Source of the DNA: Nitrosopumilales archaeon
GTDB taxonomy: Archaea; Thermoproteota; Nitrososphaeria; Nitrososphaerales; Nitrosopumilaceae
Length of the DNA: 32,000 nucleotides
NCBI GenBank assembly: GCA_007280335.1
Contig: QYQE01000026.1
Span: 1-32,000 of the forward strand
Reading direction: 5' to 3'
Each line of letters begins with the position of its first letter. Position 1 is the first letter of the stretch. This document shows positions 5,526 to 19,709 of the stretch, in pieces. The notes beneath the pieces are model-generated. The model did not search any database. It saw nothing but the letters and a program-made list of their open reading frames with translations, and was not told where the DNA came from. The position numbers were made by a program, and so were the translations under genes.

Positions 5526-5900
5526 CTCTACAGGTTTACCAATCCCTAGAATATCTTCTATCTTACTTGAAATCTCTATAATTTTGTTGTTGTCAACATG
5601 ACCTTCACAAGTGCAATAAACTATCAAATCATCATGATACCAAACCAGTTGATGCACCTTTGTTCTGGACACATGGGTAAAAGCAACCTTGCCTAAGGTT
5701 TTGTTGAATTTCTTCTCTATCTGTTTTGTATTATACAGATCTAAAGATAGTAATTCCTCTTTTCTTTGTGCCTTGACACTATGCTTTCCTTGTTTCATTT
5801 TGTTTAGGAGTAATTCTCCATCTTCTCCAATGATTTCTACATATCGCATTGAATCATCTATTGCTAAAATTTCATAGGATATCTTTGTAAAATCCATCAT
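5496..5900 (-). CDS. Small conserved hypothetical protein, paralog of 19283-19654
   Basis: 134-aa ORF. It shares EILxxDDSxRxV, FxxTLGK and a DDxLxx..TE....N..I..KI pattern with the 19283 ORF. Any Roadblock/LC7-like fold is only a guess. The 3' end overlaps convergent lhgO by 30 nt. Confidence 0.5.
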   Translation of the reverse strand: MMDFTKISYEILAIDDSMRYVEIIGEDGELLLNKMKQGKHSVKAQRKEELLSLDLYNTKQIEKKFNKTLGKVAFTHVSRTKVHQLVWYHDDLIVYCTCEGHVDNNKIIEISSKIEDILGIGKPVELRNFFEIPN

Positions 5901-6022
5901 TAAACAATTCTAAAAATACATCTTTATTTTTTGCATGTAACTAAAATTACACACACTAGGGGTTTTTGGATCGTCTAAAAATTGGAACCAAACTTAATAT
6001 TTTGTAGCACTCAAACAAGATC

Positions 6023-6283
6023 GTGCTTCCAGAACACTGTTCTATTAGAGAAAAGGGTGTAGACTGCCCTATGCCTCCTGAATTTATCATATCTATCAAG
6101 GTAAAAGATGATGAATACATGGTTGGTGTGACATGTGATGGGCACAAAAAGTCATTTGTGGATAAATTAGAGATATTGCAAAAAGAGGGCAAGGTTCCAA
6201 ATGGTACTATTTCCTTTACTGGATTAAAGGCAGTTGGCACAGATTGTATTAGAATGGATCCAAACGACCTGATTCAACTTTAG
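6023..6283 (+). CDS. Hypothetical small protein
   Basis: 86-aa ORF with a GTG start. It has more balanced composition than the overlapping antisense ORF 5956-6240, which is S/L/F-rich. No recognisable motif. Confidence 0.4.
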   Translation: MLPEHCSIREKGVDCPMPPEFIISIKVKDDEYMVGVTCDGHKKSFVDKLEILQKEGKVPNGTISFTGLKAVGTDCIRMDPNDLIQL

Positions 6284-6315
6284 GTACATAAGTCCAGATA
6301 ACTACCAGAAAACAA

Positions 6316-6864
6316 TTGTCAAAATTAGAATCTGCAGAGTTATTTGCTAAAGAGAGACACTCTGGCATGACAATTGATGATAAGACTCCATACTGGAAGC
6401 ATTTGGAAGGAGTTGTAAACAGACTCAAAAACCTAGGAATTACTGATGAAGATCTCCTATGTGCAGCTTGGTTACATGATAGTATCGAGAACACTATTAC
6501 AACTTTTGATGATATTGAACAAAGATTTGGCAGCAAAGTTGCAGTATTGGTTTTGGCATTATCAAAAGACAAGAATCTGCCAAAGGGGGAACAAGAACAA
6601 CAATACGTAAAACAACTAAAAGATGCATCCTGGGATGCAAAGATTGTCAAACTTTGTGACATATCTGCAAATCTTAAAGATCTAAAAAATGCATCTTGGT
6701 CAAAGACAAAAAAGTCAAAGGAGGTAAAAAAGAAACTGTATTATTTGAATTTAATAAAACCAGAATTGATCAAAAACAAATCCCAAGTTCCTGGCATTCA
6801 AGGTATAATGGATGGAATAAATGAAGTGTTGGTTTCATTTAATCAAAGACCTGTAGTTTTATGA
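6316..6864 (+). CDS. HD-domain phosphohydrolase of the SpoT/Mesh1 (small alarmone hydrolase-like) type
   Basis: AELFAKERHSG....TPYWKHLEGV, LCAAWLHDSIENT, FGSKVAVLVLALSKDK and KIVKLCDISANLKDL follow the order of the RelA/SpoT hydrolase HD motifs (H..., HD, ED-T, KLAD..NL). TTG start. Confidence 0.65.
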   Translation: MSKLESAELFAKERHSGMTIDDKTPYWKHLEGVVNRLKNLGITDEDLLCAAWLHDSIENTITTFDDIEQRFGSKVAVLVLALSKDKNLPKGEQEQQYVKQLKDASWDAKIVKLCDISANLKDLKNASWSKTKKSKEVKKKLYYLNLIKPELIKNKSQVPGIQGIMDGINEVLVSFNQRPVVL

Positions 6865-6872
6865 TGCGCCTT

Positions 6873-7835
6873 TTAGGTCTTGACTTGATAAATTGGCTTC
6901 TTCCCAGATAATGAAAGTACAAGATTTTTGACACAAATTTCAGCCATTTTATTTCGTGTTTCTACAGTAGAGCTGCCACTGTGAGGCATGATTACCACAT
7001 TTTCCATTTTGAAAAGAGGATGATTGGAATCAATAGGTTCTTTTGAAAATACATCAAGGCCAGCTCCCGCAATCATCTTTTTTTGTAATGCAACAACCAA
7101 ATCTTTTTCATTAATTATTTTTCCACGCGCAGTATTTATCAAAAACGCAGTCTTTTTCATTTTTTTAAGTAATTTCAAATTTACGATTTCGTTTGTTTCT
7201 CTATTATGAGGTGCATGAATACTAACAACATCGCTTTTTCTAAACAATTCGTCCAATCCACAATATTGTACACCTAGTCTTTTCTCCTCTTTTCTAGAGA
7301 GCCTAGTTCTGTTGTGGTACAAAACATTCATCTCAAAGCCTCTAGCTCTTCTTGCTACTGCCTTTCCAATTCTCCCCATTCCAAAAATTCCCAGAGTTTT
7401 CCCATAAAGATCAGTTCCCAAAAACTCGTTTGGCCCAAAGATTACCTTCCACTTTCCCTTACGAATCAACCTATCTCCTTCCCCTATCTTTCTAAAAATA
7501 GCAAGCAATAATGCCATGGTAAGGTCAGCTGTAGCTCGAGTCAATACCTCAGGAGTATAGCTTACAACGATTCCCTTTTTTCCAGCATATTTAACATCAA
7601 CGTGATCATATCCTACACTATAGGTGCTAATTGCGGCAAGTCTAGATGCAGCATCAATAACTTTTCTATCTATTCTATCATATGGATAGCAAACAAGCCC
7701 GTCCTTGTCTTTTATCTTTGATATCAACAAATCTTTTGGCATTGGAATTTTCCCAGTATGAATTTCAACATCGTATAGTTTTCGTAATTCCTTTACAGCA
7801 AAATCATGTAATGGTCTAGTGAGTAAAACTTTCAC
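6873..7835 (-). CDS. D-isomer-specific 2-hydroxyacid dehydrogenase (glyoxylate/hydroxypyruvate reductase type)
   Basis: NAD fold GIFGMGRIGKAVARRA and catalytic region NTARG...D...L, MPHSGSST. The ORF is open to 7982, but the family normally starts at MKVLLTRP. I therefore place the start at GTG 7835, giving 321 codons including the stop (320 aa). Confidence 0.8.
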   Translation of the reverse strand: MKVLLTRPLHDFAVKELRKLYDVEIHTGKIPMPKDLLISKIKDKDGLVCYPYDRIDRKVIDAASRLAAISTYSVGYDHVDVKYAGKKGIVVSYTPEVLTRATADLTMALLLAIFRKIGEGDRLIRKGKWKVIFGPNEFLGTDLYGKTLGIFGMGRIGKAVARRARGFEMNVLYHNRTRLSRKEEKRLGVQYCGLDELFRKSDVVSIHAPHNRETNEIVNLKLLKKMKKTAFLINTARGKIINEKDLVVALQKKMIAGAGLDVFSKEPIDSNHPLFKMENVVIMPHSGSSTVETRNKMAEICVKNLVLSLSGKKPIYQVKT

Positions 7836-7901
7836 AACTATTTCCCTCACAAAAAGATAGATTTTAACCTTTGATCTATTAAAAGATAACCGTTTTAACA
7901 C

Positions 7902-8870
7902 ATGATGCCTAATCATGGTATCATGGAGATAATGGGAAGAGGTTTTCGTCAGATAATGCAAGAGTCTCCAGGATACTTTCACATTGGCCTAAAATATTTT
8001 GGCTACAAGTTCTTTAATAAAAAAAGTCCAATTTATGGCTCTGCTGATATAATCAACGTATGCAATTTACACTGTACACATTGCTATTGGTGGCTAAACA
8101 GAAAAGAAAACGAAGAACTAACAGTTGAACAATGGAAAAAAATCATAGATGAAAAATTCAAGAAAAAGCACATTTTCATTGTTACTCTAGTAGGAGGAGA
8201 ACCAACAATGAGAATGGATGTCATAAAATTATTTGCCAAAGAATTTCCAAAGCGAGCATGCGTTGTATCAAACGGTACATTTCCACTAGAAAAAATCAAG
8301 AACCTATACTTTTACTGGGTATCAATAGACGGTACACAACAAGTCCATGATAGTATCCGTGGAAAAGATGCATATGAAAAGACAAAGAAAAACATCATTG
8401 ATTACATAGAAAAAAATGGAGAAAAGGCATGGAAGGACATTTGGATCTCCATGACGATTAACTCACAAAACTACAAAACAGTCAATGATGTTATCGAGGA
8501 ATGGCTACCAATTGTAAATAAAATAGGATTTCAGTTCCACACACCATTTACAAAAGGTGATCCCCTGTGGCTTCCATTTGGACCAGAAAGGACCAAAGTA
8601 GTAGATGATCTCATCGCAATGAGAGCAAAATATCCTGATTCTATCATAAATCCAGTAAAACAACTGGAATTGATGAAGAAAAACTGGGGAGGAAAAGGAA
8701 CCACGCCAGTTGACTGTCCCACTTGGGCTATTTTATCAGTAGATCATCTAGGAAGAGAAAAGATGCCATGCTGTATTGGAAGTGCAGAAAAAAATTCCAT
8801 GAAACCGATATGTGAAGAATGTGGTCTCGGATGCTATTCTGTAATGGTTGCAAACGGAATGAAAGGTTAA
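7902..8870 (+). CDS. Radical SAM protein with a C-terminal Cys-rich region
   Basis: CNLHCTHCYW is the CxxxCxxC motif and VGGEPTM is the GGEP motif. The C-terminal cysteines read DCPTW...PCCIGS...PICEECGLGCY. From memory the overall layout resembles HpnH/DUF3463-type rSAMs. The start could be 7902, 7923, 7932 or 7956. Confidence 0.8.
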   Translation: MMPNHGIMEIMGRGFRQIMQESPGYFHIGLKYFGYKFFNKKSPIYGSADIINVCNLHCTHCYWWLNRKENEELTVEQWKKIIDEKFKKKHIFIVTLVGGEPTMRMDVIKLFAKEFPKRACVVSNGTFPLEKIKNLYFYWVSIDGTQQVHDSIRGKDAYEKTKKNIIDYIEKNGEKAWKDIWISMTINSQNYKTVNDVIEEWLPIVNKIGFQFHTPFTKGDPLWLPFGPERTKVVDDLIAMRAKYPDSIINPVKQLELMKKNWGGKGTTPVDCPTWAILSVDHLGREKMPCCIGSAEKNSMKPICEECGLGCYSVMVANGMKG

Positions 8871-8888
8871 GTCTTCTATAACAACTCA

Positions 8889-8897
8889 TTTATAATA
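8889..8897 (+). promoter_or_regulatory. TATA-box-like element TTTATAATA
   Basis: It is centred about 26 nt upstream of TTG 8919, which is the expected archaeal TATA-to-start spacing. AT-rich background makes chance matches likely. Confidence 0.3.
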
Positions 8898-8918
8898 AAA
8901 TGCTGTAATGATATCAAT

Positions 8919-9053
8919 TTGAAACACAAGGACGAGTTTGCAATTTGTATCCAGTGTGCAAACCCAATAGAGAAATGTGTTTGTGTTTGTCCTTTTTGTG
9001 GAGAACGTGACAAGTGCGAGTGTGCACTTGGCGATGCAGCTACTGGCGGATAA
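8919..9053 (+). CDS. Unlisted 44-codon cysteine-rich micro-ORF
   Basis: Hand translation gives (L/M)KHKDEFAICIQCANPIEKCVCVCPFCGERDKCECALGDAATGG, stop TAA 9051-9053. The 8 Cys are arranged CxxC-x6-CxCxCxxC-x5-CxC. It starts with TTG and has no in-frame ATG or GTG. It is in the same frame as the upstream radical SAM gene. Confidence 0.35.
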   Translation: MKHKDEFAICIQCANPIEKCVCVCPFCGERDKCECALGDAATGG

Positions 9054-9078
9054 TCATAGCATTGTTAATATTTGCTCA

Positions 9079-11007
9079 ATGTCTAGGTTTGATATGTCTT
9101 CTATAGATCTAACATGGGTTATAGGTGGTCCTCAAGGAGGCGGTGTAGAAACCGCAGCTAACATTTTTGCAGGCGCATGTGCAGCATCTGGTTTGAAAAT
9201 ATTTGGAAAACGTGAATATTATTCAAACATTAAAGGAGAACATAGTTATTTTGGAGTTAGAGTTTCAGATAAAACAATTCGCTCTAATGTAACCGGTGTA
9301 ACAATGCTTGCAGCATTTGATGCTGAAACAATATTTCGACACGCAGACGATGTTTTCAATGATGGTGCCATAATTTACGAGTCTGATCTTGCACCAATGA
9401 AAATAGAAGAAGTTCCTACACTAGATCACGAGTTCAAGGAAAGACTAGTAAAATACCTGACATCAAAAAACAAGCCATTAACTATACAGGGAGCACTGGA
9501 TGCAGCAAAAGAGCGCGGAGTCCAACTATACCCTGTCTCATTTAAGACGATTTTATCCAATCTGGCAGACGAAACGCAAAATCCAAAGCTTAGGGGCATG
9601 TTTAGAATGCTTAACGTTCTTGCTGTTTCGGTATCGCTTGGAATTTTGAGTCTACCTTCTGACACTTTACTCAAATCAGTTGAGTCTATTTTTTCAAGAA
9701 AGAAAGAGATTGCTGAGATGAACAAGCACGCAGCAAACTATGCGTATAATTTTGCGACTGCAAAATATCCAAAGTACAAGTATCAACTTTCACCAATCCA
9801 AAAGGAACCAGATACAATAATGCTTCAAGGCTTTCAATCAACAGGTCTTGGCAAGATAGCAAGCGGTTGCAGATTCCAATCATATTATCCTATTACTCCT
9901 GCTTCTGACGAAAGTGTATTTTTGGAATCAAATGAAACCTTTGATGTAGAAAATAACAGGCCGGGCTCTACAATGATTGTACAAACAGAAGATGAAATTT
10001 CTGCAATTGGAATGACAATTGGTGCGGCACTTACTGGAACGCGCTCTGCTACTTGTACATCAGGTCCAGGATTTTCCTTGATGTCTGAAGCTCTTGGATG
10101 GGCTGGAATAAATGAAGTGCCAATTGTAGTGACACTATACCAAAGAAGTGGACCATCAACAGGTCTTCCAACAAGACATGGTCAGGATGATTTACAATCT
10201 GCAATACATGCAGGGCATGGAGATTTTCCAAGAATTGTCTATGCATCAGGGGACATGGAAGAAGGATTCTATGATACTGCAAAATGTTTCAACTTTGCAG
10301 AAATTTTCCAGATGCCAGTTATACACATGATGGACAAATTCATTGCAAGTACAGTTGCAACCGTAAAAAGATTTGATCCAAAAAAAATTACAATTGAACG
10401 GGGCAAGCTTTTAGAAAAAATTGAATCATATGATTACAAAAGATTTGCTCGCTCTCCTGACGGGCTATCGCCACGCTCAAGACTTGGACTGGAAAAGGGA
10501 ATATTTTGGAACACTGGAGATGAGAGCGATGAATATGGTCATATATCTGAAGATCCAGAAAACAGAATTTTCAAGATGGACAAGCGTGCTACAAAGCTAG
10601 AGTTTGCCCTAAAAACAATATCCAAGGAAGACCAGGCTACAAACTATGGTGTTTCAGAATTTTGTATAATAAGCTGGGGCTCAACCAAAGGACCCATCTT
10701 AGATGCAATTGAAATGCTAAAAAAAGAAGGATTTGCAATAGGCTTTATCCAGATCAAATTATTACAGCCATTTCCAACTGATTATATCAAATCTTTGGTA
10801 AATGGAGCAAAGACAATCATAGACATAGAGGCAAACCACTCTGCACAGCTTGGATCTTTACTAAACGAACACTTGGATCACAAAGTCGATTATTATATTG
10901 TAAAATATACTGGAAGGTCAATGACTTGCACTGAAATTTATGATTCATTAAAAAAAATACTACAAAACAAGGCAGAAAAAAGACAGGTGTTAACATATGG
11001 TGTCTAA
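9079..11007 (+). CDS. 2-oxoacid:ferredoxin oxidoreductase, alpha subunit (fused gamma-alpha type)
   Basis: [17 protein letters not shown] is the gamma-like domain, and [10 protein letters not shown] and [15 protein letters not shown] are the alpha domain. The track ORF starts at 8977, but ATG 9079 or 9094 fits the family N-terminus. It overlaps the beta gene by 11 nt. Confidence 0.85.
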
Positions 11008-13060
11008 TTTATCCGATTACAAGACAGAGGTCCACAATGACTGGTGCCCAGGGTGTGTACTACCTGATACTCTTCTCCACTGTAATCCGTCTGTTAAACA
11101 AATTCAACAAGTCAAGGTAGGTGAGCGAGTTCTTGGCCGAGACGGTCTTTATCATAAGGTAAGTGAGATCATAACACACATTCACAGAGGGAAACTGTTC
11201 AAGCTTGTCACAAAATGCTTTGGGGTAACATATCTGACAGAAGAACATCCCGTCTTGATAGTAAGACGTGATCATCAAAAATTACACAACAAAAAATTTG
11301 ATGCAGTCTGGACACGGGCAGACGAAATCAAAACAAAAGACTATCTTGTGTATCCAATTCAAAAAGAAGAGGTAGACAAAGACTATATCGAAGTTGATTA
11401 TCAACTAAAGGAAAAGGATACAGTATCCAAGCCTCTTCCAGCCAAGATTCCACTCAACGAAGATTTTCTAAGATTGATGGGATACTATATCGCTGAAGGG
11501 TATGTACATGATAGAGAGATTAATTTCACCTTCAATTCGAGTGAAACTGAATTTTTAGACGATGTTCAAAATATCATGTCTCAAACGTTTGGCCTAAACG
11601 GGACAAAAAGCAGCAAAAGAAATGCAACCACAATAACCTTCTACTCGGCGCCTCTTGGAAGGCTGTTTTTGGATTGGTTTGGTCACAAATCATACAACAA
11701 GAAGATACCGCATTTTGCAATGCTTCTTCCTGCACAAAAACAAAAGGATCTTATCAAAGGTTTGTGGCGCGGGGATGGATGGATAAGCACACAACAATTG
11801 CGAGGCAACTTTAAGACTACATCGAAGACCCTGTGTGAGCAGCTAAAGGCCCTTCTGCTAAGACAAGGGGTGGTTCCAATAATTACTGTTGGCAAGAAAA
11901 AAGGAATTCACCGAGAATCATATTCAATTCAGATTGTAAATGATCGCGATTTTGCAGTATTGTGCAAGATACTAGATGAAAAGGTAGAGTCAAAAGTTCA
12001 CATCGGAAAACTACCTTCATCAATTGTTACGCCTGATTATGTCCTAATTCCGATAAAAGAGATTGAGAGTTTTGACTATGATGGGCCGGTTTACAACCTT
12101 GAAGTCGATGATGTAAACTCGTATGTAAGCGAAAATGCAATTTTACACAATTGTGGAGACTTTGGAATTGTAAGTGCAATACAAATGGCACTAGCAGAAA
12201 TGGAAATTCCAAGAGACAAAGCTGCTATCTTTTCAGGAGTTGGCTGTTCAGGAAAGACATCTCATTTTGTAAACGTATACGGAGTCCATACTTTGCATGG
12301 ACGAGTTTTGACATTTGCACAGGGTGCAAAGCTTGCAAATCCAGAGATGACAATTATTGCGGCAGGAGGAGATGGAGATGGATTGGGAATTGGCGCTGGA
12401 CACTTTGTTGCAGCTGGCAGAAGAAACGTTGACATGACATACATCATTTTCAATAATGGGGTATATGGTTTGACAAAAGGCCAAGCCTCTCCAACTTTGA
12501 AGCTGGGATTGAAAACAAAATCACTTCCAGAACCAAATGTTAACCAAGCCGTAAATCCAATCGCACTTGCAATTGCAAGCGGCTTTACATTTGTTGCAAG
12601 AGGATATGCTTATGATGTAAGACAGCTAAAAGATTTGATTGTTTCTGCAGTAAAACATAGAGGACTAGCATTTTTGGATGTTCTTCAACCATGTCCGACA
12701 TACAACGACATCAACACAAGAGATTGGTTTTCAGGAATGGATAACATAGACGAGATGACAAAAAAACCGCAACCAAGAATATACAAGCTTGAAGACACAA
12801 ATTATGATCCCACGGTGCATATTGACTCACAAGAGGAAGAAAATGAAAAGCTGGCACAAGCTTTAATCAAATCAAATGAATGGGGTGAAAAAATACCAAC
12901 AGGCATATTCTATCAAAATGAGCTTATTGCTCCATATGATCAAAGAATTGCAGACAGAATTCCAAACTATCTTGAGAATCCACCATCTGCTCAGGAAATT
13001 ACATCTAATGGAAAACCAATCACAGACATCTCAAAAATATTGGACTCACTCCAAGTCTAA
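10997..13060 (+). CDS. 2-oxoacid:ferredoxin oxidoreductase, beta (TPP-binding) subunit, interrupted by an intein
   Basis: The exteins read DWCPG...[20 protein letters not shown] and [15 protein letters not shown]...[12 protein letters not shown] (TPP motif). The ORF is 687 aa, of which 366 are the insert. The remaining 321 aa is a normal beta subunit length. Confidence 0.9.
11054..12151 (+). mobile_element. Class 1 intein with a LAGLIDADG homing endonuclease domain (366 codons)
   Basis: Block A is CVLPDTLL with Cys1 and block B is LTEEHPVL (TxxH). The LAGLIDADG motifs are [13 protein letters not shown] and [13 protein letters not shown]. Blocks F/G read [21 protein letters not shown] followed by Cys+1. 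Excision rejoins WCPG and CGDFG. Confidence 0.85.
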
Positions 13061-13136
13061 AAATTATTCAATCTATGTGGTAGGCGTCAAGAACGAAATA
13101 AGTTATTAGCATGTTGAGTTTGAGAGTATTTTATCG

Positions 13137-13571
13137 TTGAATATATCAGAAGTAAACAAGGTATTTCGAAAATCTATAATCAAGGGTTACTTTGAGCCAA
13201 GCCTTCTGAATCTTGATTTCAAAAAATCAAACATCAAGCATCCCACAATTCATGATGAAGGTCTTATGCAATCACACTTATTGCATCTTTTTTTTGACAT
13301 TGATACAGGTGGTGACTATCCTGATGGTGACGAGTGGTTCATGGCAGAATATCTTTTCCCTTATAATATAAAAATTCCAGACACAATGAAAGGAACAGAT
13401 TATTTTAGTACAATGTCAGTTGGAGAAGGAAAAAACTTTTGGCGTCATAGGGAAATGATCCGTTACAAATACGGCAAATCAAAAAAACTAGAAGAAGCTC
13501 TTGAATTTTTAGAAAAAAAATACCAAGAACTACAATCGATGTTAGAACCACTAGAAAAAGAAATCAAGTAA
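13137..13571 (+). CDS. Hypothetical protein
   Basis: 144-aa ORF with a TTG start, an acidic DIDTGGDYPDGDEW segment and a predicted coiled-coil C-terminus. No recognisable family. Confidence 0.4.
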   Translation: MNISEVNKVFRKSIIKGYFEPSLLNLDFKKSNIKHPTIHDEGLMQSHLLHLFFDIDTGGDYPDGDEWFMAEYLFPYNIKIPDTMKGTDYFSTMSVGEGKNFWRHREMIRYKYGKSKKLEEALEFLEKKYQELQSMLEPLEKEIK

Positions 13572-14094
13572 GTTTCCATTCATTTTTTAAAAAAACATAT
13601 GTAGTATCATTAGAATCTGAAGTATGTACATTCCACTTTCCTACAGTCTCATCAAATTCATAAATTACGTCACTGATATTTTGAGGAATTTTTCTTGGAT
13701 CAAGCTGGAACGGAAGAAGCTCTAAAACAAAATCTATTTTATCAATTGCAGTATTAAACCAAGTGTTCTCTTGTAAATCTACAACAAAATTTATGTTCGG
13801 ATTACCGACAAATCGAATGAAAGTTTGCAGTGTCCGTCCATTTCCCCTGCGTCTTTTTAACTCTTTTAGCAGTCCTTTTGTTTTGTCCCACCTTGCATTT
13901 CCAAACCATTTAAAAAATGCTTCATTGAATGCCAATGGAAAAGCGATATCTAACATTGTAGTATAATCTTCATATTGTTGAGGAATAGGATGTTCTTCTA
14001 CTTTGAACATGGCATTTAACAATCCATAAAGTACCTCAAGTTCCCAAGGTGAAATCCCGTAATATTTTAGTGATGCTACAAGCTTGGAACTCAT
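13564..14094 (-). CDS. Hypothetical protein
   Basis: 176-aa ORF with an ATG start and protein-like composition. It lies 34 nt downstream of the previous minus-strand gene. No recognisable motif. Confidence 0.5.
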   Translation of the reverse strand: MSSKLVASLKYYGISPWELEVLYGLLNAMFKVEEHPIPQQYEDYTTMLDIAFPLAFNEAFFKWFGNARWDKTKGLLKELKRRRGNGRTLQTFIRFVGNPNINFVVDLQENTWFNTAIDKIDFVLELLPFQLDPRKIPQNISDVIYEFDETVGKWNVHTSDSNDTTYVFLKNEWKLT

Positions 14095-14128
14095 TATTTT
14101 TATTAGTGAAAAAATCTAATTAAAGGTT

Positions 14129-14680
14129 CTAGATTGTAAGCAGGTATTTTATCAGATAAAGAGATCCGATTGTTCCAATTACAAATACCATTGGCTTCCA
14201 AGCAAAGACTGGGAAACTAGGCGTCTTGAGCTGGATTTTATAATTATCAAAGACAGTTTGTACGTATTTCTTTATTCTTTCATTCCAGATCTTGTATTCT
14301 ATTTGGTGCTTTTTTAGTAGCATCTCTACCTCGTAAAAAACAGGAGTTCTTTGGCAAAACAGGTGCTGCAAATAGTCTCTTGAAACCTCTACTTCAGCTT
14401 GTATAGCAACTAATCCCTTTTTCATCTCAAGCAATCTTACATGCATCTCCCATGGTTTTTTCAATTTTAATGAAAGGCCATGTCCTATCTGCAATGGCTG
14501 CTTGTGTTCAAATTTGACATGGGTAAAGCCTTCATGTGAAAATATCTTCAACAACTCATCAACACTATTTTTGACAACGATAGTTAGCTGTTCTACGCCC
14601 TTCCTATCCACTGATATCTTTTCTCTCTTACCGTCAAGTAGGGATACCGTCTTTGGATATCTAGTCAGGAACTCTACCAT
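14129..14680 (-). CDS. Hypothetical protein with a C-terminal transmembrane anchor
   Basis: 183-aa ORF with a hydrophobic tail FPVFAWKPMVFVIGTIGSLYLIKYLL. It lies 44 nt downstream of cofE on the same strand. Confidence 0.5.
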   Translation of the reverse strand: MVEFLTRYPKTVSLLDGKREKISVDRKGVEQLTIVVKNSVDELLKIFSHEGFTHVKFEHKQPLQIGHGLSLKLKKPWEMHVRLLEMKKGLVAIQAEVEVSRDYLQHLFCQRTPVFYEVEMLLKKHQIEYKIWNERIKKYVQTVFDNYKIQLKTPSFPVFAWKPMVFVIGTIGSLYLIKYLLTI

Positions 14681-14724
14681 TATAGCTCAACCTCCATTTG
14701 ACCTCTATTAAAAGTATGACTGTT

Positions 14725-15495
14725 CTAGTTTTTTGTTCCTAGTCCACGAACGTAGACACACTGGTCATGCGATATAGCCATCTCGTTCTGGCTTATCTTC
14801 CTGTCTGTTATTTGTGCCTCTGAGTTTTTTATTACACAAAATGGAATTGCATCAGAACCCTCTCCCATCTTGAGATTTGCTATTGATGCAAGGTTATCAG
14901 CTACTGCCTGAAATGTAACTTTAAGCGGATTCCCAAAAAGATCTTTTTGACCCCGTATATCAGATAATGGCTCTATTCCTGCACATGCAATAGCAATGCC
15001 AACCGTGCCAACTCTTGCAGGCATTAACCGGCTGTCTATGATTATGACTCCAACATGTATCAAATATTTTAAGAAAATTTTTCGTCGCAGTTGTTCTGTA
15101 ACACGATACGCATCTATGGGATACAAAATTATCTTTCCTTTCTGTGCATTTGATTTATCAATTCCTGCATTTGGGGCCATTATGTTATCAGCTGATGTAA
15201 TTACAAATCCAGGTACTCCGCCAAAAATAGTATCAGACTCTCGCAATATGATTTCTGCAATCTTGGGATTGATTTGAAATTTTTTACCAAGTGATTTGGA
15301 CTCTTTAGATGGAACAACATATTCATAATTAACAACCCTGCCTTGAGAATTTGCAACGAACTTGCTTGAAATTATGATTACGTCTCCATTTTCCAGGGTT
15401 ATCTTAGTTCTTTCTAACGAACTAATCAAGGATTCAAAGAGATCAAATTCTTCTGTTTTTACCTCTGATTTTATAGGATAAACGGAAAGAGACAT
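14725..15495 (-). CDS. cofE: Coenzyme F420-0:L-glutamate ligase
   Basis: APNAGIDKSNA, IIIDSRLMPARVGTVGIAIACAG, IRGQKDLFGNPLKVT and ADNLASIANLKMGEGSD match CofE motifs. Confidence 0.8.
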   Translation of the reverse strand: MSLSVYPIKSEVKTEEFDLFESLISSLERTKITLENGDVIIISSKFVANSQGRVVNYEYVVPSKESKSLGKKFQINPKIAEIILRESDTIFGGVPGFVITSADNIMAPNAGIDKSNAQKGKIILYPIDAYRVTEQLRRKIFLKYLIHVGVIIIDSRLMPARVGTVGIAIACAGIEPLSDIRGQKDLFGNPLKVTFQAVADNLASIANLKMGEGSDAIPFCVIKNSEAQITDRKISQNEMAISHDQCVYVRGLGTKN

Positions 15496-15600
15496 GATAT
15501 GGTTTTATTCTCTTTACTTTTTAGCGTTCTGTATACATAAGACCACTCAAATATGGATTCAAATCATCATCTTTTTTTAACATAGACTCAGTTTATTGCC

Positions 15601-15999
15601 GTGGGATTATTCTCCAGAAAAGAAGAATTTTGTACTATTTGCAACAAGAGTATTTTTCGTAAACATAAACCAAAGCGTGATTGGAATGTTGAGGGTCCAC
15701 TATGTGCAGATTGTTATGTGGATGTAATGAAAAAACATTATGAAAATAATAATGAAAATGAATGTGTTGTATGTGGAAAAGAACCAGGATCGTTTAGCTT
15801 ATGGAAGCCAAAAAAGGAATGGGACATAAAAGGTTGGCTTTGCAAGACTTGTTTTGAGGAAAAAGAAAAATTAGATAACGAATCAAAAAAATTCTGTAGC
15901 ATATGTGGTACCAAACTCAGCTTTATCAGTTATAGCCCAAAAAAAGAATGGAGTATCAAGGGGTACATGTGCAAAATTTGTTGGAATTCAAAAAATTAA
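15601..15999 (+). CDS. Protein built of three tandem zinc-ribbon repeats
   Basis: GTG start. The three modules of about 44 aa each carry CxxC...PK(K/R)(E/D)WxhxGxhCxxC(Y/F/W). They are CTIC..KRDWNVEGPLCADCY, CVVC..KKEWDIKGWLCKTCF and CSIC..KKEWSIKGYMCKICW. Confidence 0.6.
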   Translation: MGLFSRKEEFCTICNKSIFRKHKPKRDWNVEGPLCADCYVDVMKKHYENNNENECVVCGKEPGSFSLWKPKKEWDIKGWLCKTCFEEKEKLDNESKKFCSICGTKLSFISYSPKKEWSIKGYMCKICWNSKN

Positions 16000-16033
16000 G
16001 ATTAGTGTCATAATTGTACTGTACCAAAATAGT

Positions 16034-17284
16034 TTAGGTTGACGAATTCATTTTCAATTTATTTTTTCTGACTTTTCTTATGTAGATGACGGAAAAAGCT
16101 ATTGCAGGCAAAAATACGAAATAAAGCAGATATTGTATCAAGTTATCAAATATCAAATCTTGTGTTGCTGCTTTAGGAACTATCCTATAGATTGCACCAT
16201 CTGATAATGAAACAATATACAATAGACCGTCTGGTCCTGCAACCAAATCTGTCATACACCCAAATCCTGTACCGAATATTATTTCATCCATAGAGTCACC
16301 ATAATCTACAACTTTGTCAGCTAGTTGAGGTGATTTGAAAACAAAACCATCTCTGTTATCATTTAATTCAAATCTGTATAGATTTCCATTATTGCAATCT
16401 CCAACAAACACACTGTTTTTGTATTTCCCAAACTGTGGGGAATTGACAAATGCTATTCCTGTAGGCGCAACTGTTTTCATCCAAGTAAATTGTGGATCAT
16501 GATACTGATATCCGGGATAGCCTGGAAGTTGTGCTAACTGGGTTTTATTTGCAGTACCCATGATGACATCCCAACCGCTGTTAAAGTTTGGTGGCACCAT
16601 GTTAACCTCATCACCAAAATCATCACCATTTTCTGTATCCCAAAGTTTTCCAGTTACAGGATCAACAGTTAAACCAAAACTGTTTCTAATTCCCATTGCA
16701 TAATACGGCCCAGTAGGAGCAACTCGCCAAATAACACCCATATCATTTGGTTCACCAATTGGATGATTCTGCAGTTTTCCATATTGGCCTGCATCTCCAA
16801 GAACAATGTATACTGAATTATTTAGATCAGTTGTCATGGCTCCACCGTTATGGTAGTCTTGTGTCTGCGGGAAATTCTTTATGAGAGTTTTATGTATCAG
16901 CACACTTCCATTCCAATCATAACTATAGATTCTCTTCCCTATGGCAGGTCCATCATTGAATGAAGATTGTGTAAAGTAAAGGTACACCTTGGTTCCAACA
17001 TTAATGATTCCAAGCATTCCCTGTTCTCCAATACTTGTGACATTTTCATGAAGTACTGGTTCTTGTTGCTGCACACCATCTCGTATTAGTACAACATTGC
17101 CAGATATTTTTTGTAAAACTAGTATGTTATCTTTGTCCACAAAGTCCATTGTGGTTGGACTACAACAAATATCTGGAACATATTTTTGAACTACAAAATC
17201 ATTGTCAATTATACTAGGTTGAGAATACACAGGCAAAATTATGCAGATGGATAATACAAAAATTAAAAGTAACCAGAACTTCAT
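16034..17284 (-). CDS. PQQ-dependent sugar (glucose/sorbosone) dehydrogenase-like beta-propeller, exported and C-terminally anchored
   Basis: Signal peptide MKFWLLLIFVLSICIILPVYSQP. Propeller motifs include GEQGMLGI, HNGG, GIRNSFGL..DP.TG.LW..ENG.D..DE.N and GPDG.LY. A C-terminal TM segment follows. Confidence 0.75.
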   Translation of the reverse strand: MKFWLLLIFVLSICIILPVYSQPSIIDNDFVVQKYVPDICCSPTTMDFVDKDNILVLQKISGNVVLIRDGVQQQEPVLHENVTSIGEQGMLGIINVGTKVYLYFTQSSFNDGPAIGKRIYSYDWNGSVLIHKTLIKNFPQTQDYHNGGAMTTDLNNSVYIVLGDAGQYGKLQNHPIGEPNDMGVIWRVAPTGPYYAMGIRNSFGLTVDPVTGKLWDTENGDDFGDEVNMVPPNFNSGWDVIMGTANKTQLAQLPGYPGYQYHDPQFTWMKTVAPTGIAFVNSPQFGKYKNSVFVGDCNNGNLYRFELNDNRDGFVFKSPQLADKVVDYGDSMDEIIFGTGFGCMTDLVAGPDGLLYIVSLSDGAIYRIVPKAATQDLIFDNLIQYLLYFVFLPAIAFSVIYIRKVRKNKLKMNSST

Positions 17285-17437
17285 TGATTATCGTCTAAAC
17301 TACTGATTATTAAATTTCAAGATGATGGTTCTTTACTGATCCACATACGATATTCATCAATTATAACGTCTCCAACAAAATTTGACTCATTTTCGTCTGC
17401 AAACCTTTTAATTTCAAAAAAATCTAAGTTAAATCAA

Positions 17438-18715
17438 ATGGGGATGAACATAACAGAAAAGATACTTGCCAGAGCATCTGGACGTGCCAGTTTAGCTCCC
17501 GACGATGTTGTTTTTGCCAACGTAGACAAGGTAATGGTTCATGATGTTTCTGGACCTGGAGTGATAGCAGTATTTGAAAAATTGAAAAAACAGGGCATGA
17601 AGATAGAAAAGCTCTGGGATCCATCCAAAGTCTGGGTTGCAGAAGATCATTTTGTCCCTTCTGCTGATAAGATATCAGCTCAAAATATCGTACTTCTTAC
17701 CAATTTTACAAAAGAGTTTGGAATTTCAAAACACTTCAAGTATGGAATGGGTCAATATGGGATATGTCATACATTATCGCATGAAGAGGCAATGGTTTTG
17801 CCAGGTGAGGTCTATGTCGGAGGAGATTCACATACTAATACTACAGGTGCGCTTGGTGCATTTGCAGTAGGTCTTGGTCATACCGATGTTGCCTATGTTT
17901 TGTTAAATGGAAAGATCTGGTTCAAAGTGCCTCCAACAATTTACTTTAAGCTAAACGGCAAATTACCAAGTCATGTAATGGCAAAAGACTTCATACTGAA
18001 AATTATAGGTGATATTGGTAACGACGGTGCTGCATACAAAACAATGCAATTTGGAGGTAGCGGAGTTTCTGAAATGTCAGTTGAAGAACGTCTTACTTTG
18101 ACAAACATGACTACAGAAGCTGGAGCAAAAAGTGGAATCATAGAACCAGATCAAAAACTTAGAGATTATCTATCTACTAGAGGTGCAACAAAATACAACG
18201 AAGTTCACGGAGACCAAGACGCACAATATGAAAAGTTATACGAATACGAAGCATCTGAACTTGAACCGACTGTTGCAAAACCATTCTCACCAGAAAACAT
18301 TTCTGCAGCACGGGATTTGTCCTCAATTGAGCTAGACAAAGCATACATTGGTTCTTGTACTGGTGCCAAGCTTGAGGACCTAAGAGCAGTAGCAAAGATT
18401 CTCAAAGGAAGACATGTAAAGATTAGAACCGAGATCTTGCCAGCAGCAATTTCAATATTCAAAAAGGCAATGGATGAAGGTCTCCTTAAAATTTTTATGG
18501 ATGCTGGGGTAGTTGTTGGTCCGCCAACTTGTGGTGCTTGTTGTGGAGCACACATGGGAGTCTTGGCAAAAGACGAGGTTTGCATCAGTACTACCAATCG
18601 TAATTTTCCAGGAAGAATGGGACATTTAGAATCAAAAACATATCTTGCATCTCCACTTGTTGCGGCAGCATCTGCTGTTACTGGAAAGATTACTGATCCG
18701 AGGGATTTGAAATGA
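17438..18715 (+). CDS. Aconitase-family dehydratase large subunit, archaeal type (3-isopropylmalate dehydratase or homoaconitase)
   Basis: 425 aa. NITEKILA, VGGDSHT, the cluster cysteines GSCTGA and CGACCG, and TTNRNFPGRMG are all present. Confidence 0.85.
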   Translation: MGMNITEKILARASGRASLAPDDVVFANVDKVMVHDVSGPGVIAVFEKLKKQGMKIEKLWDPSKVWVAEDHFVPSADKISAQNIVLLTNFTKEFGISKHFKYGMGQYGICHTLSHEEAMVLPGEVYVGGDSHTNTTGALGAFAVGLGHTDVAYVLLNGKIWFKVPPTIYFKLNGKLPSHVMAKDFILKIIGDIGNDGAAYKTMQFGGSGVSEMSVEERLTLTNMTTEAGAKSGIIEPDQKLRDYLSTRGATKYNEVHGDQDAQYEKLYEYEASELEPTVAKPFSPENISAARDLSSIELDKAYIGSCTGAKLEDLRAVAKILKGRHVKIRTEILPAAISIFKKAMDEGLLKIFMDAGVVVGPPTCGACCGAHMGVLAKDEVCISTTNRNFPGRMGHLESKTYLASPLVAAASAVTGKITDPRDLK

Positions 18716-19194
18716 AAGGGTCTGTAATAAAATACGAGAAAGATGATATCGATACGGATGTAATCCTTCCAGGTCCTTATCTTAAGATTCATGATTACAA
18801 GGAACTTGCGAAACACGCAATGGAAGGCTTGGACAAGGACTTTCATTCCAAGGTAAAGGAAGGTGATTTCATAGTTGCAGGTCGTAACTTTGGTTGTGGT
18901 TCATCAAGAGAACATGCTCCAATAGCACTTTCCTATTCTGGGCTCAAAGCAGTTTTGGCTTTGTCATTTGCAAGAATATTTTACAGAAATGCAGTAGATG
19001 GTGCATTTTTGCTGCCAATAGAAATTGATGAAAATTCATACAAGGATATTTCAGAAGGTGATAATCTTGAGATTGACACTGCAAAAAATGAAATAAAAAA
19101 TCTAACCAAAAGCAAGACTTACCCGATGAAGCCTTTTCCTGAATTAATTGGAAAAATTGTTGCTGCTGGTGGGCTGTTCAATTACAAGCCATAA
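18712..19194 (+). CDS. Aconitase-family dehydratase small subunit, archaeal type
   Basis: 160 aa. DIDTDVILPGPYLKI and AGRNFGCGSSREHAP are present. There is a 4-nt start/stop overlap with the large subunit gene. Confidence 0.85.
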   Translation: MKGSVIKYEKDDIDTDVILPGPYLKIHDYKELAKHAMEGLDKDFHSKVKEGDFIVAGRNFGCGSSREHAPIALSYSGLKAVLALSFARIFYRNAVDGAFLLPIEIDENSYKDISEGDNLEIDTAKNEIKNLTKSKTYPMKPFPELIGKIVAAGGLFNYKP

Positions 19195-19282
19195 AAATGC
19201 AGTTTCAAATTTTTCTCCTTCATTCTAGATTAAAAAGATCGAGAAATGATATTTATTGAGGATTTCTTGACGCAGAAAGTAA

Positions 19283-19654
19283 TTGACTCAAAATTATATT
19301 AATACAGATACTGTCAAATTAACGGAAATTCTAAAGCTAGATGATTCTATTAGGTTTGTAGGTAAAATAAAAAATCGTAAATTGCAGTCATTTGTGAGAA
19401 ATGAAAACAAAACGCCATTACTTAATGAGGAGTTGGATAACATGGCTCACTATCAAGCCTCTGTGAAGGCAAATATGGAAAATATGTTTGATAGTACTCT
19501 TGGCAAGACAAACTGGATGATTACCTCAAAAGAAAAAGTAAAACTAATCACGCTTTTCTTAGATGATGGTTTACTCATCTTATCTACAGAATCTGACATA
19601 AATCACGATGAAGTAATAAGAAAAATTCAAAGTCTGAATCTGAATTTCAGTTAA
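19283..19654 (+). CDS. Small conserved hypothetical protein, paralog of 5496-5900
   Basis: 123-aa ORF with a TTG start. Its motifs are shared with the 5496-5900 ORF, as noted there. Confidence 0.5.
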
Positions 19655-19709
19655 TCAACCTCACGATTTTTTATACCATTATATCTTGCATCTACAGAGA
19701 ATTTTGTAT

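What the first reader, a model, noticed from the sequence alone, without database searches (positions are those of the whole stretch)
11054..12151. Full-length homing-endonuclease intein inside the WCPG|CGDFG cofactor motif of the 2-oxoacid:ferredoxin oxidoreductase beta subunit
The beta ORF is 687 aa, roughly twice the usual length. After 19 N-terminal residues ending DWCPG comes a 366-codon insert with every hallmark of a class 1 intein:
- Cys1 (CVLPDT).
- TxxH (LTEEHPVL).
- Two LAGLIDADG motifs ([11 protein letters not shown] and [13 protein letters not shown]).
- A C-terminal VYNLEVDD...AILHN followed by Cys+1.

Removing exactly 11054-12151 restores WCPGCGDFGI, the contiguous N-terminal motif of OFOR beta subunits. 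From memory of the Sulfolobus-type enzyme structures, the two cysteines of CPGC are ligands of the [4Fe-4S] cluster. If so, the +1 splicing nucleophile is itself a cluster ligand, and enzyme activity should depend absolutely on splicing.

This enzyme is the sole 2-oxoacid oxidoreductase visible in the window and is a central-metabolism gene. It is not among the classical intein hosts I know of (polymerases, helicases, RNR, VMA and similar), though I cannot verify that here.
Basis: partly seen in the sequence, partly recalled or inferred. Interest (0 to 1): 0.7.

Follow-up and report, generated by a model that had tools for sequence, protein, structure and literature searches.

The report
Mobile intein splitting an iron-sulfur enzyme motif
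A self-excising, mobile protein insert (an intein with a homing endonuclease) sits between two cysteines that hold the iron-sulfur cluster of a central-metabolism enzyme in an ammonia-oxidising archaeon; it is a standard kind of element in an undescribed host site, and its junction matches a sequence engineers use to make splicing depend on redox state.

Summary
ORF 10997-13060 (+) encodes a 687-aa 2-oxoacid:ferredoxin oxidoreductase (OFOR) beta subunit. Codons 20-385 (11054-12151) are a 366-aa class 1 intein with a two-motif LAGLIDADG endonuclease.

- **Identity:** Pfam hits pass their cut-offs. The AlphaFold model (pLDDT 92.7) matches TliVMA, PI-SceI and PI-PkoII.
- **Boundaries:** a syntenic genome about 96% identical lacks exactly these 1098 bp. 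Removal gives a 321-aa protein colinear with Sulfolobus tokodaii OFOR.
- **Site:** the insert lies inside CPG|C, the CXGC loop that ligates the [4Fe-4S] cluster.
- **Selection:** dN/dS is about 0.1 in both the splicing and endonuclease parts.
- **Distribution:** 6 of the 80 nearest species carry it, in scattered positions.
- **Mobility:** synonymous divergence is lower in the intein than in the host genes, which points to horizontal spread.

More than 100 alleles at this site are already in databases but are not annotated as intein-containing, and I found no paper on them.

Redox-gated maturation is therefore plausible but untested.

Verdict: new member of a known kind, moderate interest.

The parts
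8977..11007 (+). OFOR alpha subunit gene (context). It overlaps the beta start by 11 bp. The true start is probably about 39 codons downstream, because orthologs are 637 aa.
   Evidence: NCBIfam Oxoac_fdxalpha_Archa 870.8 bits, cut-off 800. Pfam POR, POR_N and PFOR_II. Ortholog length 637 aa in L001 and L002.
10997..11053 (+). N-extein, 19 codons, ending D-W-C(-3)-P-G. Cys17 is the first [4Fe-4S] ligand.
   Evidence: Aligns to StOFOR Cys12b. CXGC ligand role from PMC5020499. Positions -4 to -1 are invariant in 49 intein-bearing homologs.
11054..12151 (+). Intein, 366 codons: Hint splicing domain interrupted by a LAGLIDADG homing-endonuclease domain.
   Evidence: Pfam Intein_splicing and LAGLIDADG_3 above cut-offs. 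AF2 pLDDT 92.7, pTM 0.91. Foldseek TM 0.77 to the TliVMA intein, plus PI-SceI, PI-PkoII and PI-PfuI. Exactly absent from L001.
11054..11056 (+). Cys1 codon (TGT), the nucleophile of splicing step 1. With Cys-3 it forms the precursor motif C-P-G-C.
   Evidence: Invariant in 50/50 aligned sequences. CPGC redox trap described in PMC10772547 and PMC3922620.
11237..11248 (+). Block B TxxH (T62-E-E-H65).
   Evidence: T62 and H65 invariant in 50/50.
11429..12013 (+). Homing-endonuclease domain, approximately residues 126-320. It contains LAGLIDADG-1 (11474-11506, acidic residue E148 at 11495-11497) and LAGLIDADG-2 (11750-11788, acidic residue D241 at 11774-11776).
   Evidence: LAGLIDADG_3, two stretches. 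E148 in 46/50 and D241 in 48/50 aligned sequences. G143, Y145, G149, W238, G240 and K265 invariant. Domain matches I-DmoI with TMt about 0.73. dN/dS 0.07-0.12.
12083..12151 (+). Blocks F and G ([23 protein letters not shown]). The terminal residues are His365-Asn366.
   Evidence: N366 invariant in 50/50. H365 in 34/50, replaced by Gly in a sister clade. Block F position 4 is Asn here (34/50) and Asp in 16/50.
12152..13060 (+). C-extein (302 codons plus stop). It starts with Cys+1, which is both the splicing nucleophile and the second cluster ligand, followed by GDFGI. It holds the TPP-binding domain and the remaining two Cys ligands.
   Evidence: TPP_enzyme_C and PFO_beta_C. Colinear with 5b46_B and 5b48_B, E = 1e-110 to 1e-115. 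The mature protein's cysteines are at 17, 20, 51 and 200 only.

Best explanation
The segment 11054-12151 is a functional, mobile class 1 intein carrying a two-motif LAGLIDADG homing endonuclease. It is inserted in the OFOR beta-subunit gene of a Nitrosopumilaceae archaeon, between Gly(-1) and the second cysteine of the CXGC loop that ligates the enzyme's only [4Fe-4S] cluster.

**Splicing (inferred from conserved residues).**
1. The gene is translated as a 687-aa precursor.
2. Cys1 performs the N-S acyl shift, assisted by T62/H65.
3. Cys+1 attacks to form the branched intermediate.
4. Asn366 cyclises, assisted by His365.
5. An S-N shift seals the 19-aa N-extein to the C-extein, giving the 321-aa beta subunit with an intact C-P-G-C loop.

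Only after splicing can the four-Cys site bind the cluster and dock ferredoxin.

**Homing (inferred).** The excised intein acts as a homing endonuclease. It cuts intein-free OFOR-beta alleles at the conserved DWCPG|CGDFG coding sequence, and the element is copied in by repair. This would explain its scattered occurrence and its younger synonymous age relative to the host genes.

**What is shown.** Element identity, exact boundaries, ligand site, purifying selection on both domains, patchy distribution, and the intein/host divergence discordance.

**What is inferred.** Splicing activity, endonuclease activity, the target site, and dependence of enzyme activity on splicing.
For: - **Domain and fold identity:**
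- **Exact empty site:** a 96%-identical syntenic genome lacks the insert, and 321-aa orthologs are 97-98% identical.
- **Host colinearity:** the spliced product is colinear with StOFOR beta, and the junction falls at Cys12b-x-x-Cys15b. PMC5020499 gives the ligand and ferredoxin-docking role of that loop.
- **Catalytic residues:** C1, T62, H65, N366 and C+1 are invariant, and E148 and D241 are at least 92% conserved, across 50 homologs of 38-86% identity.
- **Selection:** dN/dS is 0.06-0.10 overall, 0.07-0.12 in the endonuclease part and 0.04-0.09 in the splicing part.
- **Distribution:** the same insertion point occurs in more than 100 homologs. Only 6 of the 80 nearest GTDB species representatives carry it. 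They are scattered over the extein tree, and the window nests among six intein-free species.
- **Discordant age:** identical-codon fraction at conserved residues is 0.60-0.68 in the intein against 0.48-0.51 in the C-extein plus alpha gene, z = 3.4-5.0.
- **Junction substitutions:** three window-specific synonymous changes lie within 7 bp 5' of the junction, with no other window-specific site (window differing from at least 4 of its 6 closest intein-free relatives) between -155 and -7. Two of them match most intein-bearing alleles.
Against: - No experiment shows splicing or DNA cleavage.
- Block F position 4 is Asn rather than the usual Asp, and block F position 13 is Asn rather than His. This could slow or alter step coordination, although 34 of 50 homologs share Asn at position 4.
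- The nearest sampled intein is only 86% identical in protein and about 84% in DNA. No recent donor is known, so I cannot tell gain in the window lineage from precise loss in its six sister species.
- dS estimates near 1-2 are close to saturation.
- The co-conversion signal rests on three sites and cannot be polarised.
- No close relative of the intein was found on viral contigs that could serve as a vector.
Confidence: 0.9

Rival explanations
1. **Redox- or Fe-S-gated conditional splicing.** The intein is not only a parasite. Through the native Cys(-3)-Pro-Gly-Cys1 junction it works as a post-translational switch. Under oxidising conditions a Cys-3/Cys1 disulfide (or a Cys1/Cys+1 disulfide, or metal binding) blocks step 1 and holds OFOR-beta as an inactive precursor. 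Reduction releases splicing and allows cluster insertion. This would add to the best explanation rather than replace it.
For: - The precursor junction is literally C-P-G-C1. Engineered redox-responsive inteins are made by placing CPG next to the catalytic Cys to create a CPGC trap (PMC10772547).
- The P. abyssi MoaA intein has a native Cys-3/Cys1 disulfide that controls activity, and Pab PolII has a Cys1/Cys+1 disulfide (PMC3922620; PMC10663303).
- The host is an Fe-S enzyme in an aerobe.
- Among 58 representative relatives of this intein, Cys is at -3 in 13 and at +4 in 0, against a background Cys frequency of 1.6%. The hosts include TrxB-like CAT|C and ferredoxin CxxCxx|C sites.
Against: - Cys-3 is required anyway as a cluster ligand, so its conservation says nothing about a switch.
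- Most close relatives live without the intein (74 of 80 species), so no essential regulatory role exists in this clade.
- The cytoplasm is normally reducing.
- The -3 enrichment reduces to about 5-6 independent host sites.
- No biochemical data exist.
Confidence: 0.2
2. **Anciently fixed, vertically inherited intein.** It has been lost precisely in most lineages, and the endonuclease is no longer used for homing. It would be retained for structural or splicing reasons.
For: - The insertion site is shared from Nitrosopumilaceae to Nitrososphaera and Nitrosocaldus, at intein identities down to 38%, so the association is old.
- The nearest intein allele is much more diverged (dS about 0.8) than the window is from its intein-free sisters (96% DNA identity).
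- A few alleles have lost E148 or D241.
Against: - Intein synonymous divergence is significantly lower than that of the flanking host genes in four independent comparisons. Strict vertical descent does not predict this.
- Intein-bearing alleles lie in at least six separate patches of the extein tree. That would require many independent, base-perfect deletions.
- The endonuclease domain is under dN/dS of about 0.1, with both catalytic acidic residues intact in the window.
Confidence: 0.15
3. **Decayed or non-splicing insert, or an assembly artefact.** The gene would be a pseudogene, or the insert a chimera.
For: Non-canonical Asn at block F position 4 and at position 13. NCBI annotation sometimes splits such genes into fragments.
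Against: - The 687-codon frame is uninterrupted.
- All nucleophiles and the TxxH motif are intact.
- Purifying selection is strong.
- The same architecture appears in more than 100 independent assemblies.
- No second OFOR-beta-like or intein-like sequence occurs in the window.
Confidence: 0.02

Closest known systems
Homing-endonuclease-associated archaeal inteins with solved structures: TliVMA/PhoVMA (7qsu, 7qss, 7qst), PI-PkoII (2cw7), PI-SceI (1vde), PI-PfuI (1dq3)
   Same: Same architecture: a Hint splicing domain split by a two-motif LAGLIDADG endonuclease domain. Foldseek TM is 0.77 to 7qsu, and sequence E = 5e-11 to PI-PkoII. The termini are Cys1, TxxH and HN|C.
   Different: The host is a TPP/Fe-S metabolic enzyme rather than a polymerase or ATPase. 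Sequence identity is only 12-19%. It is more compact (366 aa) than PI-PkoII, PI-SceI and PI-PfuI, though similar in size to the VMA intein entries. Block F position 4 is Asn, where PI-PkoII has Asp.
Pyrococcus abyssi MoaA intein and the engineered CPGC 'redox trap' (Callahan, Belfort and co-workers)
   Same: Cys at extein -3 and catalytic Cys1 form a CxxC across the N-terminal splice junction. Here the sequence is exactly C-P-G-C1, as in the engineered trap (PMC10772547; PMC3922620). As in MoaA, the host is an oxidoreductase, and reviews describe MoaA as oxygen-labile (PMC10663303).
   Different: Disulfide formation and redox control are demonstrated for MoaA and the engineered inteins, and not tested here. 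In this case the motif is the native cluster-ligand loop, and after splicing Cys+1 takes the place of Cys1 in it.
Mycobacterial SufB intein (Fe-S assembly scaffold; splicing sensitive to oxidative and nitrosative stress)
   Same: An intein in the Fe-S metabolism sphere whose splicing affects Fe-S enzyme supply, cited as a stress-sensitive intein (PMC6195587).
   Different: Bacterial host, different protein and site. It is not reported to lie on a cluster-ligand CxxC. I did not establish any close sequence relationship.
Intein-containing tetraether lipid synthase Tes of Nitrososphaeria (NCBIfam NF045703, rSAM_Tes_intein) and inteins in IscU/NifU_N, TrxB-like and ferredoxin-domain proteins
   Same: These are the nearest relatives of this intein outside OFOR-beta. 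The NF045703 match has E = 2e-19. Several sit immediately before a ligand or redox cysteine: NPV|CGD, CAT|C, CxxCxx|C.
   Different: Different host genes and target sites, at only 27-40% identity. I did not examine whether the Tes intein also lies on a Cys ligand.
Two-subunit archaeal 2-oxoacid:ferredoxin oxidoreductase (StOFOR1/2; 5b46, 5b47, 5b48)
   Same: The spliced product is colinear with StOFOR beta (E = 1e-110 to 1e-115). It has the same CXGC loop, the same four cysteines, a TPP domain, and an adjacent alpha gene.
   Different: StOFOR has no intein. The window protein has a short extra loop (about residues 216-226 of the spliced protein) that is typical of its clade.

Membership tests
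Class 1 intein (Hint-fold protein-splicing element) | Cys/Ser/Thr at intein position 1 and Cys/Ser/Thr at extein +1 | tested here: met
   Cys1 (11054-11056) and Cys+1 (12152-12154). Both invariant in 50 and 49 aligned homologs respectively.
Class 1 intein (Hint-fold protein-splicing element) | Block B TxxH and C-terminal His-Asn | tested here: met
   T62/H65 invariant. H365-N366 present, with N366 invariant and H365 in 34/50.
Class 1 intein (Hint-fold protein-splicing element) | Block F aspartate (F:4) that coordinates the splicing steps | tested here: not met
   Asn348 in the window and in 34/50 homologs, Asp in 16/50. This residue is highly conserved but not universal among inteins, so it does not exclude membership. 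It may affect kinetics.
Class 1 intein (Hint-fold protein-splicing element) | Hint fold / profile match | tested here: met
   PF14890 scores 43.5 bits, above the 35.8 cut-off. AF2 pLDDT 92.7. Foldseek E = 8e-24, TM 0.77 to the TliVMA intein.
Class 1 intein (Hint-fold protein-splicing element) | In-frame insertion absent from orthologs, whose removal restores a conserved host motif | tested here: met
   L001 lacks exactly 1098 bp. 321-aa orthologs are 97-98% identical. The spliced product is colinear with 5b46_B.
Class 1 intein (Hint-fold protein-splicing element) | Autocatalytic excision with ligation of the exteins | not testable with these tools
   Needs expression followed by SDS-PAGE or MS. 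Indirect support only, from purifying selection.
LAGLIDADG homing endonuclease (single-chain, two-motif) | Two LAGLIDADG helices, each with a catalytic acidic residue | tested here: met
   LMGYYIAE148G and LWRGD241G. E148 in 46/50 and D241 in 48/50. PF14528 scores 64.8 bits with two stretches.
LAGLIDADG homing endonuclease (single-chain, two-motif) | Alpha-beta-beta-alpha-beta-beta-alpha fold resembling I-DmoI or PI-SceI domain II | tested here: met
   Foldseek matches I-DmoI with TMt about 0.73, E about 1e-6, plus full-length PI-SceI and PI-PkoII.
LAGLIDADG homing endonuclease (single-chain, two-motif) | Site-specific cleavage of the intein-less allele and homing | not testable with these tools
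   Indirect support only: patchy distribution, intein synonymous divergence below that of the host, and dN/dS of about 0.1 in the endonuclease domain.
Archaeal two-subunit 2-oxoacid:ferredoxin oxidoreductase, beta subunit | Equivalog-level profile match, TPP-binding domain, adjacent alpha subunit | tested here: met
   NF041171 scores 431.4 bits, cut-off 423. TPP_enzyme_C and PFO_beta_C are present. The alpha gene scores 870.8 bits, cut-off 800.
Archaeal two-subunit 2-oxoacid:ferredoxin oxidoreductase, beta subunit | Four Cys ligands of the single [4Fe-4S] cluster, including the CXGC loop | tested here: met
   The mature protein has cysteines only at 17, 20, 51 and 200. By the offsets of the alignment these correspond to StOFOR residues 12, 15, 46 and 197. 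The CXGC role comes from PMC5020499. That residues 46 and 197 are the other two ligands rests on my own knowledge plus the title of Yan et al. 2014, cited there.
Redox-trapped / conditional intein (Cys-3-Cys1 disulfide, MoaA type) | Cys at extein -3 forming CxxC with catalytic Cys1 | tested here: met
   C17-P18-G19-C20 in the precursor. Invariant in 49 homologs.
Redox-trapped / conditional intein (Cys-3-Cys1 disulfide, MoaA type) | Reversible disulfide that blocks splicing under oxidising conditions | not testable with these tools
   Requires a redox titration of splicing and non-reducing MS.

The most novel reading that the evidence does not exclude
The OFOR-beta intein may be a natural CPGC redox trap. 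Maturation of the enzyme's only Fe-S site would then be gated post-translationally by cellular redox state (or Fe-S or metal availability) in an aerobic ammonia oxidiser.

It may also belong to a wider, undescribed group of archaeal inteins that preferentially sit immediately before the second cysteine of CxxC or Fe-S ligand motifs. Hosts seen here are OFOR-beta, TrxB-like reductases, ferredoxin domains, IscU and radical-SAM proteins. That pattern would hint at a recurrent link between intein splicing chemistry and redox or metal sites.
Probability: 0.2. Interest if true: 0.75.

Novelty: new member of a known kind. Interest (0 to 1): 0.5.

Why it matters
Inteins are overwhelmingly described in replication, recombination and repair proteins. 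A well-supported, still-mobile intein inside the cluster-ligand loop of a central carbon-metabolism enzyme widens the known host range. It does so in globally important nitrifiers.

It also offers a natural presence/absence polymorphism, with intein-bearing and intein-free genomes about 96% identical. That makes it a useful system for studying the homing cycle in uncultured archaea.

The native C-P-G-C1 junction provides a directly testable case for the debated idea that inteins can act as environmental (redox) switches. Here the test can be done in the native extein context of an Fe-S enzyme.

On the practical side, annotation pipelines mislabel or split these genes. A dedicated 'intein-containing OFOR beta' model would fix this, and metabolic reconstructions would no longer miss the enzyme.

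Tried and rejected
- **Viral vector.** Scans of IMG/VR with the intein alone found nothing. With the family alignment they found only distant inteins of at most 29% identity, none in OFOR. There is no evidence for a phage or virus vector.
- **Other inteins in the window.** phmmer of the intein against all six-frame ORF fragments hit only the OFOR-beta ORF.
- **Prior description in the literature.** I ran seven searches: intein with ferredoxin oxidoreductase, Thaumarchaeota, ammonia-oxidizing archaea, Nitrososphaera, 2-oxoacid, or iron-sulfur cluster plus IscU, and the redox-trap search. I also spot-checked papers. None describes this intein. The original redox-trap papers (PMC3087850, PMC3718494) are not held, so I cite secondary sources. 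The supplement of the Novikova et al. intein census is not held.
- **Co-conversion tract.** There is a cluster of three synonymous differences within 7 bp of the 5' junction. It cannot be polarised as gain or loss and rests on too few sites. I keep it as suggestive only.
- **Composition as a sign of foreign origin.** Intein GC is 39.1% against 39.8% for the extein, so this is uninformative.
- **Pseudogene or artefact reading.** Rejected; see the rival explanations.
Full report
**1. Observation**

The window carries an ORF at 10997-13060 (+) of 687 codons. It overlaps by 11 bp the end of a gene at 8977-11007 for the OFOR alpha subunit (NCBIfam NF041170, 870.8 bits, cut-off 800).

The first 19 residues end in DWCPG. 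Residue 20 is Cys (TGT at 11054-11056) and opens CVLPDT. Residues 384-385 are His-Asn (12146-12151), followed by Cys-Gly-Asp-Phe-Gly. The coordinates in the finding are exact.

Profile searches support both components:
- Pfam gives Intein_splicing at 43.5 bits (cut-off 35.8) and LAGLIDADG_3 at 64.8 bits (cut-off 22.5) for the 366-aa insert.
- Pfam gives TPP_enzyme_C and PFO_beta_C for the remainder.
- NCBIfam places residues 385-685 in the archaeal OFOR-beta equivalog, 431.4 bits against a cut-off of 423.

An AlphaFold2 model of the insert, built on a 50-sequence alignment, has mean pLDDT 92.7 and pTM 0.91. Its best PDB matches are homing-endonuclease-associated inteins: TliVMA 7qsu (E = 8e-24, TM 0.77), PhoVMA, PI-SceI, PI-PkoII and PI-PfuI. 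The central domain alone matches I-DmoI.

**2. Boundaries and the empty site**

Removing 11054-12151 gives a 321-aa protein that aligns end to end with Sulfolobus tokodaii OFOR beta subunits 5b48_B and 5b46_B (E = 4e-115 and 2e-110). DWCPGCGDFGI is contiguous in that alignment.

A search with the spliced sequence returned orthologs of exactly 321 aa at 97-98% identity (P0121-P0124). One lies on contig JACQCS010000001.1 (GCA_016201515.1, a groundwater 'Thaumarchaeota archaeon'), fetched as L001. L001 has the same gene order as the window. Its DNA is 96.2% identical over window 3549-11057 and 96.8% identical over 12152-23051, and it lacks precisely the 1098 bp in between.

This is a textbook filled-site versus empty-site pair, at about the species boundary.

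**3. The insertion point is a cluster-ligand loop**

[quoted passage not shown] It also states that Pro13b and Phe18b of this loop contact ferredoxin. The paper cites work showing that the four Cys residues are needed for CoA-dependent oxidative decarboxylation (PMC5020499).

In the alignment, the window's Cys17 and Cys20 (spliced numbering) are Cys12b and Cys15b. The mature window protein contains exactly four cysteines, at 17, 20, 51 and 200. These fall at the aligned positions 12, 15, 46 and 197.

The intein therefore sits between Gly(-1) and ligand Cys15b, and the +1 splicing nucleophile is a cluster ligand. That catalysis of the physiological reaction requires splicing is a strong inference, not a demonstration.

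**4. Is the element functional?**

I aligned 50 sequences carrying an intein at this site, spanning 38-86% intein identity (A1).
- Invariant: C1, T62 and H65 (block B TxxH), N366, Cys+1, and the endonuclease residues G143, Y145, G149, W238, G240 and K265.
- Nearly invariant: the LAGLIDADG acidic residues, E148 in 46/50 and D241 in 48/50. Both are intact in the window.

Pairwise Nei-Gojobori dN/dS between the window intein and five relatives is 0.06-0.10. Split by domain, it is 0.07-0.12 for the endonuclease part and 0.04-0.09 for the splicing part. Both activities therefore appear to be under purifying selection.

There are two deviations from the textbook pattern. Block F position 4 is Asn rather than Asp (34/50 Asn, 16/50 Asp). 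Position F:13 is Asn in the window, and His is the commonest residue there in the family (22/50). A sister clade also replaces the penultimate His with Gly.

**5. Distribution and mobility**

A search with the full precursor returned more than 100 proteins of about 685-720 aa with an intein at the identical point, WCPG|C...N|CGDFG. Sources name them from Ca. Nitrosotenuis uzonensis, Nitrososphaera sp., Ca. Nitrosocaldus sp., and also from Bipolaricaulota/Acetothermia MAGs. I did not verify the bacterial taxonomy.

Most of those that carry a source name are annotated simply as OFOR or 2-oxoglutarate oxidoreductase beta. Some are split into 'LAGLIDADG family homing endonuclease, partial' plus a roughly 320-aa 'thiamine pyrophosphate-dependent enzyme'.

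Among the 80 nearest GTDB species representatives:
- 6 carry the intein.
- 74 lack it, including two with an altered target motif (CVGC, CAGC).

On a neighbour-joining tree of the C-extein, the carriers fall in at least six separate places. The window nests inside a clade of six intein-free species. No marine Nitrosopumilus or Nitrosopelagicus representative has the intein.

The intein is also younger than its host genes at synonymous sites. The table gives the fraction of identical codons at conserved residues, window against each relative:

| Comparison | Intein | Host genes (C-extein + alpha) |
|---|---|---|
| L002, L008, L019, L035 | 0.60-0.68 | 0.48-0.51 |

These differences give z = 3.4-5.0. 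Intein dS is 0.77-1.16 against about 2 or unestimable (saturated) for the extein.

Strict vertical descent predicts equal values, so the intein has moved between lineages after they diverged.

Direction in the window's own clade is unresolved. The closest sampled intein is only 86% identical, so there is either an unsampled donor or repeated precise loss in the sisters.

Three window-specific synonymous changes lie within 7 bp 5' of the junction: TGC CCA GGG against TGT CCT GGA in the nearest intein-free genomes. No other window-specific site (window differing from at least 4 of its 6 closest intein-free relatives) occurs between -155 and -7. The two changes at -7 and -4 match 5 of 7 intein-bearing alleles. 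This is compatible with a short co-conversion tract, but the evidence is too thin to rely on.

**6.

The precursor's N-terminal junction reads Cys(-3)-Pro-Gly-Cys1.
- The same group found that the P. abyssi MoaA intein has a native Cys-3/Cys1 disulfide that controls activity (PMC3922620).
- Reviews interpret this as protection of an oxygen-labile enzyme (PMC10663303).

The OFOR-beta precursor thus carries the engineered trap sequence naturally. This makes redox-conditional maturation a concrete, testable hypothesis.

I rate it at about 0.2. Cys-3 is needed as a ligand regardless. Most relatives do without the intein. Nothing has been measured.

**7. Relatives of the intein**

An exhaustive profile-free search of 1.84 billion representatives gave 7930 hits at E <= 0.001. 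After OFOR-beta, the best-scoring hosts include:
- IscU/NifU_N proteins, with junction ...GNPV|C...HN|CGDVM, which is the first cluster-ligand Cys of the scaffold.
- A radical-SAM protein.
- 4Fe-4S ferredoxin-domain proteins, with junction CxxCxx|C...|CxxxCP.
- TrxB-like pyridine-nucleotide disulfide reductases, with junction CAT|C...HN|CDAP, which is the redox-active CxxC.

NCBIfam's best intein match is the intein-containing tetraether synthase Tes model.

In 58 representatives with full-length matches, Cys occupies extein -3 in 13 and +4 in none, against a background Cys frequency of 1.6%. This reduces to roughly 5-6 independent host sites. It is an intriguing asymmetry but not yet a statistic.

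**8. Comparison with the known, and verdict**

In mechanism and architecture this is an ordinary class 1 intein with a LAGLIDADG homing endonuclease. Membership features are met, apart from the non-universal block F Asp and the untestable biochemical activities.

The new points are these:
- The host and site: an Fe-S ligand loop of a central-metabolism enzyme in Nitrososphaeria, with no description found in the held literature.
- The natural CPGC junction.
- Clear evidence that the element is still circulating.

As sequence the family is already abundant in public databases with precomputed intein domains. The claim is therefore 'new member of a known kind', of moderate interest (0.5), with a more interesting but unproven redox-switch reading.

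Noticed in passing
window 1198-3548: A 2.35-kb segment is present in the window but absent from the 96%-identical syntenic contig L001. It carries ORFs 1463-2026 (+), with a weak sub-threshold DUF922 hit, and 2264-3100 (-), with a weak sub-threshold methyltransferase hit. This is a second strain-level indel near the intein locus.
   Followed up: partly
P0245, P0252, P0253, P0255 and others (IscU/NifU_N); P0269, P0281, P0287 and others (Pyr_redox_2); P0254, P0264, P0334 (Fer4); P0243 (radical SAM): The closest non-OFOR relatives of the intein sit immediately before cluster-ligand or redox cysteines of other Fe-S and redox proteins. In 58 representatives, Cys is at extein -3 in 13 and at +4 in 0.
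   Followed up: partly
P0066 and P0074 clusters (contigs up to 226 kb): Intein-bearing OFOR-beta with the same insertion point is named by its sources from bacterial Bipolaricaulota/Acetothermia MAGs. This suggests cross-domain occurrence, either of the intein or of the whole gene. I did not verify the taxonomy of the contigs.
   Followed up: no
L018 (match start 4001) and L059 (match start 4001): Two intein-free species representatives have an altered ligand loop and homing site: DWCVGCGDYG and DWCAGCGDFG instead of DWCPGCGDFG. L018 is sister to the intein-bearing L002 on the extein tree. These may be endonuclease-resistant variants.
   Followed up: no
Cluster members of P0072, P0066 and P0074: NCBI annotation often splits intein-bearing OFOR-beta genes into 'LAGLIDADG family homing endonuclease, partial' plus a roughly 320-aa 'thiamine pyrophosphate-dependent enzyme'. 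No intein-aware model exists for this family, unlike Tes, GyrA and RecA.
   Followed up: no
L002 4138-5208: In the intein-bearing relative L002, a TnpB/Cas12f-like gene (Pfam MJ0013 and Cas12f1-like_TNB) sits directly upstream of OFOR-alpha. The window and L001 have a radical-SAM gene in that position (window 7902-8870).
   Followed up: no
alignment A1, intein positions 348, 355 and 365: There are two intein sub-lineages at the same site. One ends ...LHN, and in the window this type has Asn at block F position 4. The other ends ...ASGN (penultimate Gly or Ser), and 16 of 50 sequences have Asp at F:4. This suggests compensatory active-site variation, but I did not test whether the residues co-vary.
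   Followed up: partly
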